A stretch of 64,000 nucleotides of DNA from the IMG/VR virus record IMGVR_UViG_3300021964_009400; one strand, 5' to 3'. Of this stretch, positions 6,168 through 27,074 are shown one piece after another. Under the pieces are notes generated by a model. It was not told the origin of the DNA, did not search any database, and saw only the letters and a program-made list of their open reading frames with translations. Both the position numbers and the translations under genes were made by a program. Each line of letters begins with the position of its first letter. Position 1 is the first letter of the stretch. Origin of the DNA: a virus (lineage: Duplodnaviria; Caudoviricetes).

Positions 6168-6935
6168 ATGATATTAGATAGAGAATTATTATTAAAACAA
6201 GGGTTTCTACATTTTAATTTAAAAGAAATAGATGAGGAACTGTATAATAAATTATACACAGAGTTTAATCAAAAGCCAATTAGTACTAAAAATTGGAGCT
6301 TTCGATATGAAAAGAAACTCTATGTAGAATCTGAAACAGAGATACGAGATACGATATCGAAACTTACTGAAAACTGTGAAAGAGCAAGATTTAGTATAGA
6401 TGAACCAATACCTCCTCGTAGCGCAATGATACGACTTTTGATTGAAGAAGAAGATTTTGATAAATTACATTCTATACAAAAACAATTAGATAGTTACAAA
6501 TCTTTCAACAATGGTCAAAATTGGTATTTCAAAAATAAAATTCCATTTAATAGAAAAATTCTTAAAGAAGTTTTCGATAAAACAATTATAACAGATTTAT
6601 ACAATGAAAATATAATAGATAAAACTAAGTATTCCGAGTTTGAACATATATATCGTGAAACTGATTTTACACTATATGTAAAAAATAATTTTATTGAAGA
6701 GCATGCAGATGCAGAAGATAGTGGAAGGTTGTGTGTATTTTTAATGTATTTATCTGATGATTACAAAGATGGATATGGTGGGGAAATCGTAATTAATAAA
6801 TCTGTTAAAATTACTCCTGAATTTGGTAACATTGTTATTTTGGATTTTACAAAACATAATTTAAACCACGAAGTATTAGCAGTAACAGAACCAGATTTTA
6901 AACGATACGCTATTATCAATTTTTTATACCAATAA
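6168..6935 (+). CDS. 2OG-Fe(II) oxygenase (prolyl-hydroxylase-like)
   Basis: HAD...H(EV)...R triad: EEHADAED, LMYLSDDY..GYGGEI, NHEV, KRYA. Confidence 0.82.
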   Translation: MILDRELLLKQGFLHFNLKEIDEELYNKLYTEFNQKPISTKNWSFRYEKKLYVESETEIRDTISKLTENCERARFSIDEPIPPRSAMIRLLIEEEDFDKLHSIQKQLDSYKSFNNGQNWYFKNKIPFNRKILKEVFDKTIITDLYNENIIDKTKYSEFEHIYRETDFTLYVKNNFIEEHADAEDSGRLCVFLMYLSDDYKDGYGGEIVINKSVKITPEFGNIVILDFTKHNLNHEVLAVTEPDFKRYAIINFLYQ

Positions 6936-6943
6936 TATTTATA

Positions 6944-7127
6944 TGTAGACCGTGTGGACTGGTCTTTACAATACAGTCGCGGGTGGAGTGAACGCATCCG
7001 AAACAATCGTTGCATATGTTGAACCTTTAAAAGAAAGGATTGATATGAGCGATGAATATTTAATGGCACTTGAACCAAACCAAGGTCATCTCCAGGCTCT
7101 CTCGAAGGACACGGAAGAATAGAGATT
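6944..7127 (+). ncRNA. candidate structured ncRNA (unassigned family)
   Basis: GC-richer island between a TATTTATA motif and a terminator; ends pair (CCGTGT 6950-55 with ACACGG 7109-14) and there are three internal hairpins. Confidence 0.6.
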
Positions 7128-7153
7128 AAACCTCTCTTCGGAGAGGTTTTTTT
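7128..7153 (+). terminator. Rho-independent terminator with UUCG loop
   Basis: AAACCTCTC-TTCG-GAGAGGTTT followed by a T-tract. Confidence 0.92.
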
Positions 7154-7191
7154 ATTTACTATATTTATATACAAGAAAATATGGTATAATC

Positions 7192-7602
7192 ATGAGTACA
7201 AATTTTGAATTATTTCCTGGCAAAAACTTAAGTGGGTTGTTTGAGGATATCTATGAAAACCAACAAACAAAAAAACAAAGAATATCAGAACTAATTGCTG
7301 AAATGAAAAAGGTAATCAGACATTCTGGTGATATGGCAGTAATAGGACCCATTATAAAAGATTTAGTTGATACTTCGGTAAGAAATGATGAAACATTAAT
7401 CAAAATGGCAGCAATAGCACAAAGAATGATTGCATCAAAAGATAAATCAGAAGGAGATACTGGTTTCCTTACTGATAAAGAAAAAGAACAATTACTACAA
7501 CAGTTAGAAGAAACTGTTTACGAAGTAGAAACTGAAAAAACAAAGGTTGATGATTTAACAAACGAAGTTGAAGAATTAAAACAAAAAGTAAATAATGAAT
7601 AG
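7192..7602 (+). CDS. hypothetical helical phage protein
   Basis: 136-aa ORF downstream of a TATTTATA motif. Confidence 0.7.
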   Translation: MSTNFELFPGKNLSGLFEDIYENQQTKKQRISELIAEMKKVIRHSGDMAVIGPIIKDLVDTSVRNDETLIKMAAIAQRMIASKDKSEGDTGFLTDKEKEQLLQQLEETVYEVETEKTKVDDLTNEVEELKQKVNNE

Positions 7603-24682: not shown

Positions 24683-25822
24683 ATGTTAAAACCAATACCT
24701 AAATCGAGTATAAATCAAAGAACTTTTAAAGTTCACAAAAAGTTTATACAAACAGATGCAACTAATCCAATTTATATTGGTGCTTTATCTAGTGGTAGTG
24801 CATACGATTCTGGTTCAGAGGCAACTACAAATGGTGTTTCTAATCATTCTTTATATGCATCTATAAAATCTAAATATTATAGAAATGATGGTAATATATT
24901 TACCACCTATGGTAATTATGGTAATTTAGGACAAATTTCACAAGAAAGAATTATTGGTGGTCAAATTAGAGTTATTACAATTCCACAAAATAAAAAAGGA
25001 TTAGGAATTAAAAAAGGTAGTGTACTTTTAACAGATATAGATACATCAACTGTTTACAGAGATACTGGTGAAGGAAATATAGCATCTCTAACACCACGAT
25101 ACACCTTAACAGAACTTGATTTTAATACTGGTGTTATAACAATTACTGATGCAGATGACCAGAATTTTACTGGTACCATAACAAGTATCGATTTTAATAC
25201 AGGTAACTCAGTATTAACATTTGGAGTAGAAACCAAAGATGTTACAATTACTCAACTTGATTTTAATACAGGTATTTTATTGACAGCTGAACCTTTAGAT
25301 TTTGATGGTTTGGATATCGATGAGGCAAGATATGGAAATATATTTTATTCAGATGGATTAATAGTTTTATCAGATGTTACAAGTTTAGTTTCATATAGTT
25401 TAGAGTATCGTTCAACTGAAACAATAACAGAACAAGAAGTTTTACTTACTGCAAAAGCAGGAGAGTTTAACTATTCTCAAAACCCATCGGCAGTTGAATC
25501 ACAATTAAGTGGTTCATATGATTTTACAACTACTGCAATACCAAATGTTTCTTCGGCAAGAACAAGAAAAATAAAAGAGTATAGTGATATAAAACGAAGA
25601 GAATTTTTCTCTGGTTCTTTTAACTCAACAATAAGTGGTAGTTGGGATGATTATTATGCATCTGCATCAGTAGATACAACTGGTTCATATTTATCAACAT
25701 ATATTAGTACAATTGGATTATATGATAAAAGTGGAGATATGGTAGCCGTTGCTAAACTACCAAAACCAATAAAGAATTTACCAGACTACGATGTAAATTT
25801 TATAGTAAGATTTGATGTATAA
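24683..25822 (+). CDS. baseplate/tail-collar-like structural protein with TxLDFNTG repeats
   Basis: C-terminal YISTIGLYDKSGDMVAVAKLPKPIK; three ELDFNTG/SIDFNTG/QLDFNTG repeats. Confidence 0.6.
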   Translation: MLKPIPKSSINQRTFKVHKKFIQTDATNPIYIGALSSGSAYDSGSEATTNGVSNHSLYASIKSKYYRNDGNIFTTYGNYGNLGQISQERIIGGQIRVITIPQNKKGLGIKKGSVLLTDIDTSTVYRDTGEGNIASLTPRYTLTELDFNTGVITITDADDQNFTGTITSIDFNTGNSVLTFGVETKDVTITQLDFNTGILLTAEPLDFDGLDIDEARYGNIFYSDGLIVLSDVTSLVSYSLEYRSTETITEQEVLLTAKAGEFNYSQNPSAVESQLSGSYDFTTTAIPNVSSARTRKIKEYSDIKRREFFSGSFNSTISGSWDDYYASASVDTTGSYLSTYISTIGLYDKSGDMVAVAKLPKPIKNLPDYDVNFIVRFDV

Positions 25823-25862
25823 CTAAAATTTGTTATATTTATATAAAAACAAAGATAATATT

Positions 25863-26081
25863 ATGGCTTATCAAATTTTAAAAGTGAATAAAGAAGTAGT
25901 AGAAGATAACCTAGAGTTAACTGATGAACAAATACAAGAGTATTTTGCATCAGAAGAATTCAATTACTTTATTTATGATAGTTACGAAGATGATACAGAT
26001 ATCTTTTCTGCACTTTTAGAAGAAAAAGGTGAAGCAGGTTGTGAAGATATTAGAATAATAAAACCAATAATAGAGGAGTAA
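25863..26081 (+). CDS. small acidic protein
   Basis: ATG 19 nt after a TATTTATA motif (track start 25830 is TTG); 21 D/E in 72 aa. Confidence 0.6.
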   Translation: MAYQILKVNKEVVEDNLELTDEQIQEYFASEEFNYFIYDSYEDDTDIFSALLEEKGEAGCEDIRIIKPIIEE

Positions 26082-26086
26082 AAATT

Positions 26087-26290
26087 ATGGCATTACAATA
26101 TAATATTTGTGATATTGATGGAAACATTATAGATGAAAATGTTTCAATTGATATAATCAACGAAAAACTTGAAGGAGATGTAAATATATTTTGGGACGAT
26201 GAAGGATTAGTTGAAAGACTAAAAGAAGGAGACGAAGATGTTTCAGAACATTTACTTATTAAAACAATAGAAATAGACGAAGAGGAATAA
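26087..26290 (+). CDS. small acidic protein
   Basis: 22 D/E versus 4 K/R in 67 aa; GAGGAG upstream. Confidence 0.6.
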   Translation: MALQYNICDIDGNIIDENVSIDIINEKLEGDVNIFWDDEGLVERLKEGDEDVSEHLLIKTIEIDEEE

Positions 26291-26293
26291 GAT

Positions 26294-26482
26294 ATGGCTT
26301 CACTTGAAGAATTATATAATAAATCTGAGTTTTCTAAATTAGGAAAATCTAACAAAGATAAAACACCTTTATCAGCTGGCGATTACGAAGTTTCTGGTTT
26401 GCAAAAAAATGAAAAGCAACTTAACAAAGCCAGAGGTGGAAAGCTTAATTTAAAGAAATATTCTGATTCTGTAAAACTATAA
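26294..26482 (+). CDS. small basic protein
   Basis: 62-aa ORF ending KARGGKLNLKKYSDSV. Confidence 0.55.
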   Translation: MASLEELYNKSEFSKLGKSNKDKTPLSAGDYEVSGLQKNEKQLNKARGGKLNLKKYSDSVKL

Positions 26483-26492
26483 ATTCTCTAAT

Positions 26493-27074
26493 TTGAGTTT
26501 ACTTATAAACCATTACTCAAAATGGGCATTCGTTCATATACCAAAAACTGGTGGAACATCATTAACAAACATTTTATTAAAAGATAAAAATACCGAACAA
26601 GTTTCGGTGCACGATTCTTTAAGAATGTTAGATGCTGATTCCTCTTACTATATTTTTACAATAGTAAGAAATCCATTTACTCGAATATGTAGTGCTTTTG
26701 AAGATGAGTATAGAAAAGGAAATACCAAACACGATTTTAGCTTTTATCTAAAAAATATTGACGAAACAAATGTTTGGTTGTTACCTCAAAGTTACTTTAT
26801 TGAGGCGGGAAAAACAAAAAATAAAAAAGTTTCATTCATAGGAAGATATGAAAACTATGATACTGATTGTAATCAAATTTTACAAAAATTAAAATATTCA
26901 GAAAAAATTCCGCATCTTAACCGAAATCCAATATATGATAGACATCCAAATTTAAATCAAGAACAGTATTATAGTAAAATATATTACACAGAAGATTGGA
27001 TGATAGATTGGGTAAAAGAAAGGTACGAAAATGATTTTAAAATTCTTAACTATGGCATGGAATTACCAAGGTAG
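26493..27074 (+). CDS. sulfotransferase (Sulfotransfer_2-like)
   Basis: PAPS-binding motifs FVHIPKTGGTS and FTIVRNPFTR..S. Confidence 0.85.
   Translation: MSLLINHYSKWAFVHIPKTGGTSLTNILLKDKNTEQVSVHDSLRMLDADSSYYIFTIVRNPFTRICSAFEDEYRKGNTKHDFSFYLKNIDETNVWLLPQSYFIEAGKTKNKKVSFIGRYENYDTDCNQILQKLKYSEKIPHLNRNPIYDRHPNLNQEQYYSKIYYTEDWMIDWVKERYENDFKILNYGMELPR

What the first reader, a model, noticed from the sequence alone, without database searches (positions are those of the whole stretch)
6936..7153. Stand-alone, highly structured ~170-nt ncRNA candidate
Seen: a GC-richer island between TATTTATA (6936-43) and a UUCG terminator (7128-53). The ends pair (CCGTGT 6950-55 with ACACGG 7109-14). Enclosed are hairpin GACTG/CAGTC (6957-61/6974-78), hairpin CGGGTG/CATCCG (6980-85/6995-7000), and a long bulged helix 7006-7053 capped by CCTTT/AAAGG. 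The loop GAGTG (6986-90) could pair with CACTT (7067-71) as a pseudoknot or kissing loop. I could not match it to tRNA, tmRNA, SRP, RNase P or the common ribozyme cores. Alternative: a 25-aa ORF at 7045-7122 (MSDEYLMALEPNQGHLQALSKDTEE) with AAGGA upstream, whose RBS and start would be sequestered in the helix.
Basis: partly seen in the sequence, partly recalled or inferred. Interest (0 to 1): 0.75.

Follow-up and report, generated by a model that had tools for sequence, protein, structure and literature searches.

The report
Riboswitch-like leader with micro-peptide gene
This is a small self-contained phage gene in which an almost invariant, probably knotted RNA leader hides the start codon of a conserved 25-residue peptide. 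The same leader, absent from Rfam, occurs in streamlined marine Flavobacteria, and its gene partners and core helix point to a new glutamine-type riboswitch.

Summary
The structured island is real, but it is not a closed 170-nt stand-alone ncRNA. It is a mini transcription unit with four parts:
- a promoter-like box (6935-43);
- a ~70-nt ultra-conserved leader (6946-7015);
- a helix that buries the AUG (7007-7055), followed by a genuine 25-aa ORF (7045-7122);
- a terminator (7128-53).

Across 38 distinct homologues, hairpin P1 (6947-51/6961-65) covaries and about 55 leader positions are invariant. The ORF evolves like a coding sequence.

The leader has no Rfam match. It also occurs as a single copy in two genera of small-genome marine Flavobacteria. 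There it precedes either the same peptide family or the genome's only DUF4278 gene. DUF4278 is the family that cyanobacterial glutamine riboswitches control.

An invariant GAACG in the P2 loop can pair with an invariant CGUU 3' of P2. These are the same base pairs that form the glutamine pocket of glutamine-I and -II riboswitches, but in permuted strand order.

Best reading: a new riboswitch-like translational control element, with glutamine as candidate ligand. Ligand binding and the pseudoknots are untested.

The parts
6935..6943 (+). Promoter-like box ATATTTATA. It overlaps the stop codon of the upstream 2OG-Fe(II) oxygenase gene (6168-6935).
   Evidence: The box occurs 14 times on the + strand and 2 times on the - strand (expected 5.7), mostly 20-30 nt before ORF starts. 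The same box precedes the 136-aa gene at 7161-69 in nearly all 80 relatives. Cellular copies have the Bacteroidetes -7 box TAnnTTTG (TATATTTG) at the same place. Promoter function is inferred.
6947..6965 (+). P1 hairpin: 5 bp (6947-51 with 6961-65) and a 9-nt loop GUGUGGACU.
   Evidence: Three of the five pairs change on both sides: 6949-6963 is CG/AU/GC, 6948-6964 is AU/UA/GC, and 6947-6965 is AU/GC/GU. All 38 distinct sequences are fully paired, and 0 of 500 shuffles reach the covariation score.
6957..6978 (+). Proposed pseudoknot PK1: loop GACU (6957-60) pairs with AGUC (6975-78) across an A-rich linker (6966-74).
Evidence: Both arms are invariant in 38 distinct sequences, so there is no covariation for or against. 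The topology is inferred.
6980..7000 (+). P2 hairpin: 6 bp (6980-85 with 6995-7000) and a 9-nt loop GAG(U/A)GAACG.
   Evidence: The stem is nearly invariant. One-sided changes keep pairing: G.U to G-C at 6983-6997 in 7 sequences, and G-C to G.U in 1. The closing pair 6980-7000 is broken in 3 distinct sequences.
6991..7011 (+). Proposed pseudoknot PK2: loop AACG (6991-94) pairs with CGUU (7008-11) across the A-rich linker 7001-07. This is the candidate ligand pocket.
   Evidence: Both arms are invariant. The four base pairs and their polarity match A37:U4, A38:U3, C39:G2 and G40:C1 of the glutamine-II PK helix, where GGAACG also sits in a hairpin loop (PMC6698751). Pairing and pocket are inferred.
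7008..7015 (+). Switching segment CGUUGCAU. CGUU is shared between PK2 and the sequestor, and CAU is an anti-start codon.
   Evidence: C, G, U, U and the second C are invariant, and A and U are at least 90% conserved. In 33 of 39 distinct leaders the most probable partner of the start-codon G lies in this segment.
7007..7055 (+). Start-codon sequestor helix. It pairs 7007-13 with 7049-55 and 7015-22 with 7040-47, with an apical CCUUU/AAAGG. It buries AAAGGA and AUG 7045-47.
   Evidence: The MFE fold shows it. Homologues with different sequence and length keep a hairpin here.
7045..7122 (+). 25-aa peptide gene (MSDEYLMALEPNQGHLQALSKDTEE, stop TAG 7120-22).
   Evidence: About 30 peptide variants of 22-47 aa share L-x-A-L-[EA]-x-N-Q-[GS]-H. 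Some carry a 3-nt indel. In the 10-codon core, pairwise differences by codon position are 2.56, 1.49 and 4.16, and NQ[GS]H is kept through synonymous codons. There is no Pfam hit.
7128..7155 (+). Intrinsic terminator: 9-bp stem, UUCG loop and a U-run.
   Evidence: Found by the terminator scan. It is conserved in relatives with compensatory stem changes such as CCTCTC/GAGAGG and CCTCAC/GTGAGG.

Best explanation
6935-7155 is an accessory mini-gene of a marine myovirus that probably infects Flavobacteriia. A promoter-like box starts a transcript at about 6946.

Its first ~70 nt form an aptamer-like domain:
- hairpin P1, whose loop probably pairs downstream (PK1);
- hairpin P2, whose loop GAACG probably pairs with CGUU just 3' of P2 (PK2).

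Each element would be an H-type pseudoknot with an A-rich linker. The CGUU strand runs straight into CAU. Together they form the 5' strand of a helix that buries the AUG and first codons of a 25-aa peptide gene, and a terminator follows.

I read it as a riboswitch-like translational switch. When the aptamer is stabilised, CGUU(GCAU) is held in the pseudoknot and the start codon is freed. Otherwise it pairs with AUG and the following codons, and translation is blocked.

The most likely ligand is L-glutamine or a close nitrogen-status signal. That would make this a third, strand-permuted architecture around the CGUU/GAACG pocket of the glutamine-I and -II riboswitches. The phage would use it to couple production of the peptide to the host's nitrogen state. 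The peptide's target is unknown.

Shown: conservation, P1 covariation, coding ORF, start-codon sequestration in folds, gene associations.
Inferred: pseudoknots, switching, ligand, direction (ON).

The confidence given (0.55) is for 'cis-acting metabolite-sensing riboswitch-like translational control element'. For the narrower claim that the ligand is glutamine I put about 0.35-0.4. For the broader claim 'conserved structured cis-leader plus real coding micro-ORF' I put about 0.9.
For: (1) Selective constraint. About 55 of 72 leader positions are invariant in 38 distinct sequences from phages and cells. Over the same sequences P1 covaries, with 42 cells changed on both sides and 0 of 500 shuffles reaching the score, and the flanks and ORF diverge.

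(2) Cis-regulatory layout. The leader is always followed 20-34 nt later by an ORF start, in front of two unrelated ORF families. In 33 of 39 distinct leaders the start-codon G is predicted to pair with the invariant CGUUxCAU segment. Blocking CGUU raises the mean unpaired probability of the AUG from 0.33 to 0.48.

(3) Gene association. In 12 genome-search loci from two flavobacterial genera (L169, L182, L186; L174-L181) plus the metagenome contig L130, the downstream gene is DUF4278 (37.7, 37.4 and 28.4 bits over the 25.3-bit cut-off). In 4 of 4 genomes checked, that is the only DUF4278 hit in the genome. DUF4278 was found in 0 of 400 other sampled genomes of the phylum, and in only 1 of 14 control genomes (Synechococcus). 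In cyanobacteria, glutamine riboswitches of types 1 and 2 sit almost exclusively in front of DUF4278 (IF17-like) genes or short ORFs, and they switch translation ON (PMC6212724; PMC2864571).

(4) Core similarity. The invariant hairpin-loop GAACG pairing with invariant CGUU reproduces the four base pairs that hold glutamine in glutamine-II, C1:G40 and G2:C39 plus U3:A38 and U4:A37. The loop strand GAG(U/A)G is placed to lie in that helix's major groove, as the linking strand does there (PMC6698751).

(5) Own promoter-like box and terminator.

(6) Not in Rfam 15, and no paper was found.
Against: - No ligand or structure probing exists.
- PK1, PK2 and most of P2 never vary, so covariation neither supports nor refutes them.
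- The Rfam glutamine models do not score the element even at E<=10. The claimed similarity rests on a 4-5 nt helix plus topology.
- In the window's own copy the central sequestor stays closed in the thermodynamic model even with CGUU blocked: P(AUG unpaired) is 0.01 in both cases.
- Genomic neighbours of the cellular copies are mostly unrelated to nitrogen metabolism. They include a fatty-acid desaturase and a lycopene cyclase. Only an asparaginase and one nearby glutamine synthetase fit.
- The phage's own ORF is the peptide, not DUF4278, and the peptide has no known function.
- Transcription of the phage copy is not shown. RNA-library contigs cover only relatives of the aptamer.
Confidence: 0.55

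Rival explanations
1. Same cis-acting leader, but not a glutamine sensor. It binds a different small molecule or ion, or it binds a protein such as a host regulator, a ribosomal component or the encoded small proteins themselves. It could also act as a thermometer.
For: The ligand is inferred only from the DUF4278 association and a 4-bp helix. The Rfam glutamine models do not match. Neighbouring genes are mostly not nitrogen-related. Two tandem pseudoknot-like modules with similar loops (GUGUG and GAGUG) could be repeated protein-binding sites.
Against: Two unrelated ORF families share the identical leader, which argues against autoregulation by the product. Invariance of loops and linkers over about 55 nt is typical of metabolite pockets and is more than a thermometer needs. 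The DUF4278 link is 1:1 and otherwise specific to glutamine riboswitches.
Confidence: 0.27
2. Stand-alone or dual-function trans-acting small RNA. The ~200-nt transcript would act through its conserved 5' domain on another RNA or protein, and the peptide would be secondary.
For: It has its own promoter-like box and terminator. The 5' domain is more conserved than the ORF. One cellular copy (L173) has the leader followed directly by a terminator with no ORF.
Against: The closing helix and kissing loop that defined the proposed fold are not conserved. In about 40 of 44 copies an ORF start follows within about 35 nt and pairs with the conserved 3' edge of the domain. The ORF is under coding selection.
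Confidence: 0.1
3. 6S-like RNA that mimics an open promoter. This was another first reader's label for the same stretch (e1-5362813).
For: The size is about 200 nt, it is independently transcribed, and the MFE fold of the window copy closes the ends.
Against: The long closing helix is not conserved, and there is no conserved central bubble. No 6S family hit appeared in Rfam even at E<=10. The 3' half is coding.
Confidence: 0.02
4. Ordinary small mRNA. On this view the leader looks conserved only because the cassette spread recently by horizontal transfer.
For: Distribution is patchy: 7 of 80 related phage loci, 25 of 48 genomes in two flavobacterial genera, and 3 of 151 in a family sample. The phage and cellular leaders are near-identical.
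Against: Within the same sequences the ORF has diverged to about 55% peptide identity with many synonymous differences. The P1 stem has changed with compensation, and the promoters, sequestor and terminators differ. The about 55 core positions stay fixed throughout. That pattern is purifying selection, not recent spread.
Confidence: 0.04

Closest known systems
Glutamine-II riboswitch (Downstream-peptide motif, Rfam RF01704)
   Same: It is a short 5' leader in front of very short ORFs or DUF4278 genes. It is pseudoknotted. GGAACG in a hairpin loop pairs with CGUU(C) outside the hairpin to make the ligand helix. It controls translation, and it occurs in marine microbes and their phages.
   Different: The CGUU strand lies 3' of the hairpin instead of at the 5' end, so the connectivity is permuted. 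An extra covarying hairpin and pseudoknot module lies upstream. The fifth pair (C5:G36) is missing. There is no CM match. It is found in Bacteroidetes and their phage rather than in cyanobacteria. The ligand is untested.
Glutamine-I riboswitch (glnA RNA, RF01739)
   Same: It has the same CGUUC/GAACG helix as its ligand site. It is associated with DUF4278 (gifB/IF17). It acts as an ON switch by freeing the ribosome-binding region.
   Different: Glutamine-I is a three-way junction with an E-loop and no pseudoknot. There is no CM match here.
H-type pseudoknot riboswitches (preQ1-I, SAM-II/V, guanidine-III)
   Same: The proposed topology matches: a short hairpin, a loop that pairs with a 3' segment, an A-rich linker, and an expression platform that overlaps the 3' pseudoknot strand.
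   Different: The sequences are unrelated and give no Rfam hit. Here two such modules appear to sit in tandem.
Yfr6 of Prochlorococcus (a 'ncRNA' later shown to be a riboswitch leader plus short ORF)
   Same: It is a ~250-nt independently transcribed RNA first taken for non-coding. It is in fact a conserved leader plus a short conserved ORF.
   Different: It has a different leader family and a different peptide.

Membership tests
Glutamine-II riboswitch (RF01704) | Scores at or above the family covariance model's gathering threshold | tested here: not met
   There was no hit at the gathering score in the window and none at E<=10 in 6800-7300. A whole-record search of the phage and 4 flavobacterial genomes gave no hit at the element.
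Glutamine-II riboswitch (RF01704) | PK helix CGUUC/GAACG, with GGAACG in the P2 hairpin loop | tested here: inconclusive
   Invariant GAACG (6990-94) lies in the P2 loop and invariant CGUU lies at 7008-11, giving 4 Watson-Crick pairs. The strand order is permuted and the fifth pair is absent. The pairing itself cannot be tested because nothing varies.
Glutamine-II riboswitch (RF01704) | Third strand (C17 G18 C19) in the major groove, forming the G>G:C triple and a long-range C:G pair | not testable with these tools
   Two candidates exist: the loop strand GAG(U/A)G (6986-90) and the invariant CGC at 6978-80. Testing this needs 3D data.
Glutamine-I/II riboswitches | Located in the 5' UTR of DUF4278 (IF17-like) genes or short ORFs | tested here: met
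   DUF4278 lies directly downstream in 12 genome-search loci (L169, L182, L186, L174-L181) plus the metagenome contig L130. It is the only DUF4278 gene in 4 of 4 genomes checked. Short 22-47 aa ORFs follow in the rest, including the window.
Glutamine-I/II riboswitches | Specific binding of L-glutamine | not testable with these tools
   This needs in-line probing or ITC.
Riboswitch (generic) | Conserved aptamer with covarying stems, plus a variable expression platform that overlaps the start site | tested here: met
   P1 covaries. The core is invariant. The platform is variable but always pairs the conserved 3' edge with the AUG region.
6S RNA | Conserved long closing helix and a central bubble that mimics an open promoter | tested here: not met
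   The closing helix is lost in homologues, there is no Rfam 6S hit, and the 3' half is coding.
DUF4278 (PF14105) | Pfam model match of the encoded protein | tested here: not met
   The window's 25-aa peptide has no Pfam hit at E<=1. Only the alternative downstream ORFs in cellular copies match.
tRNA / tmRNA | ARAGORN detection | tested here: not met
   ARAGORN found 0 genes in the window.

The most novel reading that the evidence does not exclude
The leader is a third, circularly permuted architecture of the glutamine riboswitch. It would be the first outside cyanobacteria and their phages. It would be native to abundant streamlined marine Flavobacteria, where it controls their sole DUF4278 gene or a 25-aa peptide. 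Their myoviruses would have captured it to gate a micro-peptide by the host's nitrogen status. That peptide may act on nitrogen assimilation, as IF7 and IF17 act on glutamine synthetase.
Probability: 0.35. Interest if true: 0.85.

Novelty: new variant of a known kind. Interest (0 to 1): 0.72.

Why it matters
Glutamine riboswitches are so far considered exclusive to cyanobacteria and a few marine phages. DUF4278 proteins have no known function beyond the IF17 context.

A distinct leader with the same pocket-forming base pairs in permuted order would matter in four ways:
- It controls the only DUF4278 gene of streamlined marine Flavobacteria, and it is carried as a cassette by their phages.
- It would be a new riboswitch class with an obvious ligand to test.
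- It would be a natural example of the same ligand pocket rebuilt on a different strand topology.
- It would be evidence that RNA-based nitrogen sensing, and phage hijacking of it, extends to a second major group of ocean bacteria.

It also adds a conserved 25-aa peptide family that gene callers miss.

Even if the ligand turns out to be something else, the motif is a well-supported and undescribed structured RNA.

Tried and rejected
**Searches that found no known family**
- Rfam at gathering score found nothing. At E<=10 the only hits were weak ones driven by the terminator hairpin.
- ARAGORN found no tRNA or tmRNA.
- blastn against cultured phages found no match. CM R1 found nothing in Flavobacterium phage immuto or Microcystis phage Mel-JY01.
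- 20 related phage loci that lack the element have no Rfam family in its place.

**ORFs and helices rejected**
- The long ORFs across the leader (GTG 6952-7122 on +, 6761-7174 on -) are rejected. Homologues carry 1-nt indels just upstream of the AUG, around 7026-7040, and there are no Pfam hits.

**Weak or uninformative results**
- Canonical glutamine models gave only sub-threshold hits elsewhere in the host-like genomes. The one I looked at, L196, looks like it lies within coding sequence.
- Conserved gene neighbourhood around the cellular copies gave no consistent nitrogen-metabolism context.
- A thermodynamic test of switching, blocking CGUU, gave only a modest average effect and none for the window copy.
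- Metatranscriptome contigs from 4 studies cover relatives of the aptamer with other flanks. This shows presence in RNA libraries only. It is not evidence for the phage transcript, its ends or its level.
- The homologue search for the 64-aa DUF4278 protein returned only close marine relatives and no bridge to cyanobacterial proteins.
- A speculative third pairing, P1-loop GUGU with xCAU (7012-15), fits 38 of 44 sequences and is left as an idea only.

**Not attempted**
- No complex-prediction job was sent. I make no binding claim for the peptide.

Full report
**What is in the window**

The window is part of an 84-kb IMG/VR virus record. It has about 28% GC and all long ORFs lie on the + strand. 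By baseplate-wedge similarity its nearest cultured relatives are Flavobacterium phage immuto (36.7%) and Microcystis phage Mel-JY01 (41%).

The finding lies between a 2OG-Fe(II) oxygenase gene (6168-6935; PF13640) and a 136-aa ORF (7192-7602).

The + strand folds much better than shuffles. The z-score is -3.7 for 6936-7153 and -3.8 for 6946-7062 without the terminator. The - strand gives -2.1.

ATATTTATA (6935-43) is a recurrent, strand-biased box. It occurs 14 times on + and 2 times on -, against 5.7 expected, and usually sits 20-30 nt before ORF starts. The element therefore has its own promoter-like box and its own terminator.

**Known families**

Rfam 15 gives nothing at gathering score. 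At E<=10 only the terminator hairpin produces weak hits. ARAGORN finds no tRNA or tmRNA. Cultured-phage BLAST finds nothing.

**Homologues in related phages**

The neighbouring 136-aa protein retrieved 80 related phage loci. Only 7 of them carry the element. The others keep just the terminator and the downstream promoter-like box. The element is therefore an accessory cassette.

Alignment of the 8 copies splits the element in two.
- The 5' ~100 nt are almost invariant.
- The 3' part shows third-position changes, a 3-nt (AAA) indel right after codon 2, and a variable C-terminus with a fixed stop.

Homologues also carry 1-nt indels just upstream of the AUG, around 7026-7040. These exclude the 56-aa GTG ORF and the minus-strand ORF.

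**Wider homologues**

Pattern scans of IMG/VR, JGI metagenomes and GTDB genomes gave about 45 true copies. A covariance model (R1) added 27 genomic copies.

The combined alignment has 44 sequences, 38 of them distinct. It shows:
- about 55 invariant positions out of 72;
All cells are paired, 42 cells changed on both sides, and 0 of 500 shuffles reach the covariation score. Slid controls collapse;
- P2 (6980-85/6995-7000), kept with only pairing-compatible one-sided changes, apart from a broken closing pair in one clade.

Two further complementarities never vary:
- GACU (P1 loop) with AGUC (6975-78);
- AACG (P2 loop) with CGUU (7008-11).

Each would make an H-type pseudoknot with an A-rich linker. 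This is my inference. Invariance gives no covariation test.

**The ORF is a gene**

About 30 peptide variants of 22-47 aa share L-x-A-L-[EA]-x-N-Q-[GS]-H. Across 27 distinct core coding sequences, the third codon position varies most (4.16, against 2.56 and 1.49 at positions 1 and 2). NQ[GS]H is kept through AAT/AAC, CAA/CAG, GGN and CAT/CAC. The peptide has no Pfam match.

**Expression platform**

In all types a hairpin follows the conserved domain. Its 5' strand starts in the invariant CGUUxCAU and its 3' strand covers the AUG and the first codons. Sequence and length vary between types while the pairing is kept.

In 33 of 39 distinct leaders the most probable partner of the start-codon G lies in CGUUxCAU(AU). 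In 21 of them it is the C of CAU. Blocking CGUU raises the mean AUG accessibility from 0.33 to 0.48. In the window copy, however, the central helix stays closed in that model. The switch is therefore plausible but not demonstrated.

**Cellular copies and gene association**

The motif is a single-copy feature in 11 of 29 and 14 of 19 genomes of two genera of small-genome (0.9-1.9 Mb) marine Bacteroidetes. It occurs in 3 of 151 genomes sampled from their family. The contigs carry MnmE and T9SS-tailed proteins, so they are cellular. A Bacteroidetes -7 box (TATATTTG) sits just upstream of P1.

Downstream lies one of two things:
- the same peptide family; or
- a DUF4278 protein of 64 aa (L130, L165/L169, L182, L186) or 45 aa (L174-L181).

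In 4 of 4 genomes tested, the DUF4278 gene behind the motif is the only one in the genome. DUF4278 was found in none of 400 other sampled genomes of the phylum. Among 14 control genomes it was found only in Synechococcus.

Published work shows that cyanobacterial glutamine riboswitches (glnA type 1 and Downstream-peptide type 2) lie almost exclusively before DUF4278 (IF17-like) genes or 17-100-aa ORFs. They turn translation on when glutamine binds, and they were thought to be restricted to cyanobacteria (PMC6212724; PMC2864571).

**Core comparison with the glutamine riboswitches**

[quoted passage not shown] That helix is made of C1:G40, G2:C39, U3:A38, U4:A37 and C5:G36. Its GGAACG strand lies in the P2 hairpin loop, and a linking strand lies in the groove. 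Glutamine-I builds the same pocket on a different scaffold (PMC6698751).

Here the invariant GAACG also sits in a hairpin loop. It can form the same four pairs with the invariant CGUU:
- G6994:C7008;
- C6993:G7009;
- A6992:U7010;
- A6991:U7011.

By pseudoknot topology, the loop's 5' part GAG(U/A)G would cross that helix's major groove.

The difference is connectivity. CGUU lies 3' of the hairpin rather than at the 5' end. That would explain why the Rfam models do not score it. The resemblance is short, and I treat it as a lead strengthened by the gene association, not as proof.

**Expression data**

RNA-library contigs from four studies cover relatives of the aptamer (6946-7024) with other flanks, some at high k-mer depth. 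This shows presence in RNA libraries. It does not show the phage transcript.

**Verdict**

The interpretation as a closed stand-alone ncRNA is replaced by a cis-acting, riboswitch-like leader plus a real micro-gene.

Membership in RF01704 or RF01739 is not claimed. The proposal is [quoted passage not shown].

My confidence by claim:
- conserved structured cis-leader plus coding ORF: about 0.9;
- metabolite-sensing riboswitch: about 0.55;
- glutamine as ligand: about 0.35-0.4.

No publication of this motif was found.

Noticed in passing
window 5257, 6156, 6935, 7161, 10386, 22694, 24656, 25835, 32952/32975, 42541, 44200, 58732 (+ strand): ATATTTATA is a strand-biased box just upstream of many ORFs. 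It resembles the Bacteroidetes -7 promoter element TAnnTTTG seen before the cellular copies of the leader (TATATTTG). It is not the T4 late box TATAAATA. This suggests the phage uses host-like promoter recognition and supports a Bacteroidetes host.
   Followed up: partly
window 25822-26493: A copy of the promoter-like box at 25835 is followed by about 650 nt with no ORF of 90 aa or more on the + strand. This could hold further micro-genes or an RNA.
   Followed up: no
L086, L088, L135 (IMG/VR and metagenome contigs), just 3' of the peptide stop: A second phage lineage carries the same leader and peptide. It has an extra conserved GC-rich segment of about 60 nt (...CUCGACGAAGUCGCC...) between the stop codon and the terminator. 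This may be another structured element.
   Followed up: no
L173 (G156:C63) and L170 (G120:C28): Two cellular copies depart from the rule. In L173 the leader is followed directly by a terminator with no ORF. In L170 neither the peptide nor DUF4278 follows; a 43-aa ORF starts about 137 nt downstream.
   Followed up: partly
L130 610-1683 and L174-L181 (about 300 nt downstream, opposite strand): A type-II-like glutamine synthetase lies two genes from one DUF4278 copy. An Asparaginase_2 gene converges on eight others. These are the only nitrogen-related neighbours seen.
   Followed up: partly
window 6936-7153 compared with L003-L081: The cassette sits in a hyper-variable slot. Relatives have different genes upstream but share the same terminator and downstream promoter-like box, as if cassettes are exchanged between conserved terminator and promoter boundaries.
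   Followed up: partly
window 7034-7039: The AAAGGA upstream of the AUG looks like a Shine-Dalgarno sequence. The cellular flavobacterial copies lack it at the same place, so in the phage copy it may chiefly serve as the 3' arm of the apical CCUUU/AAAGG stem.
   Followed up: no
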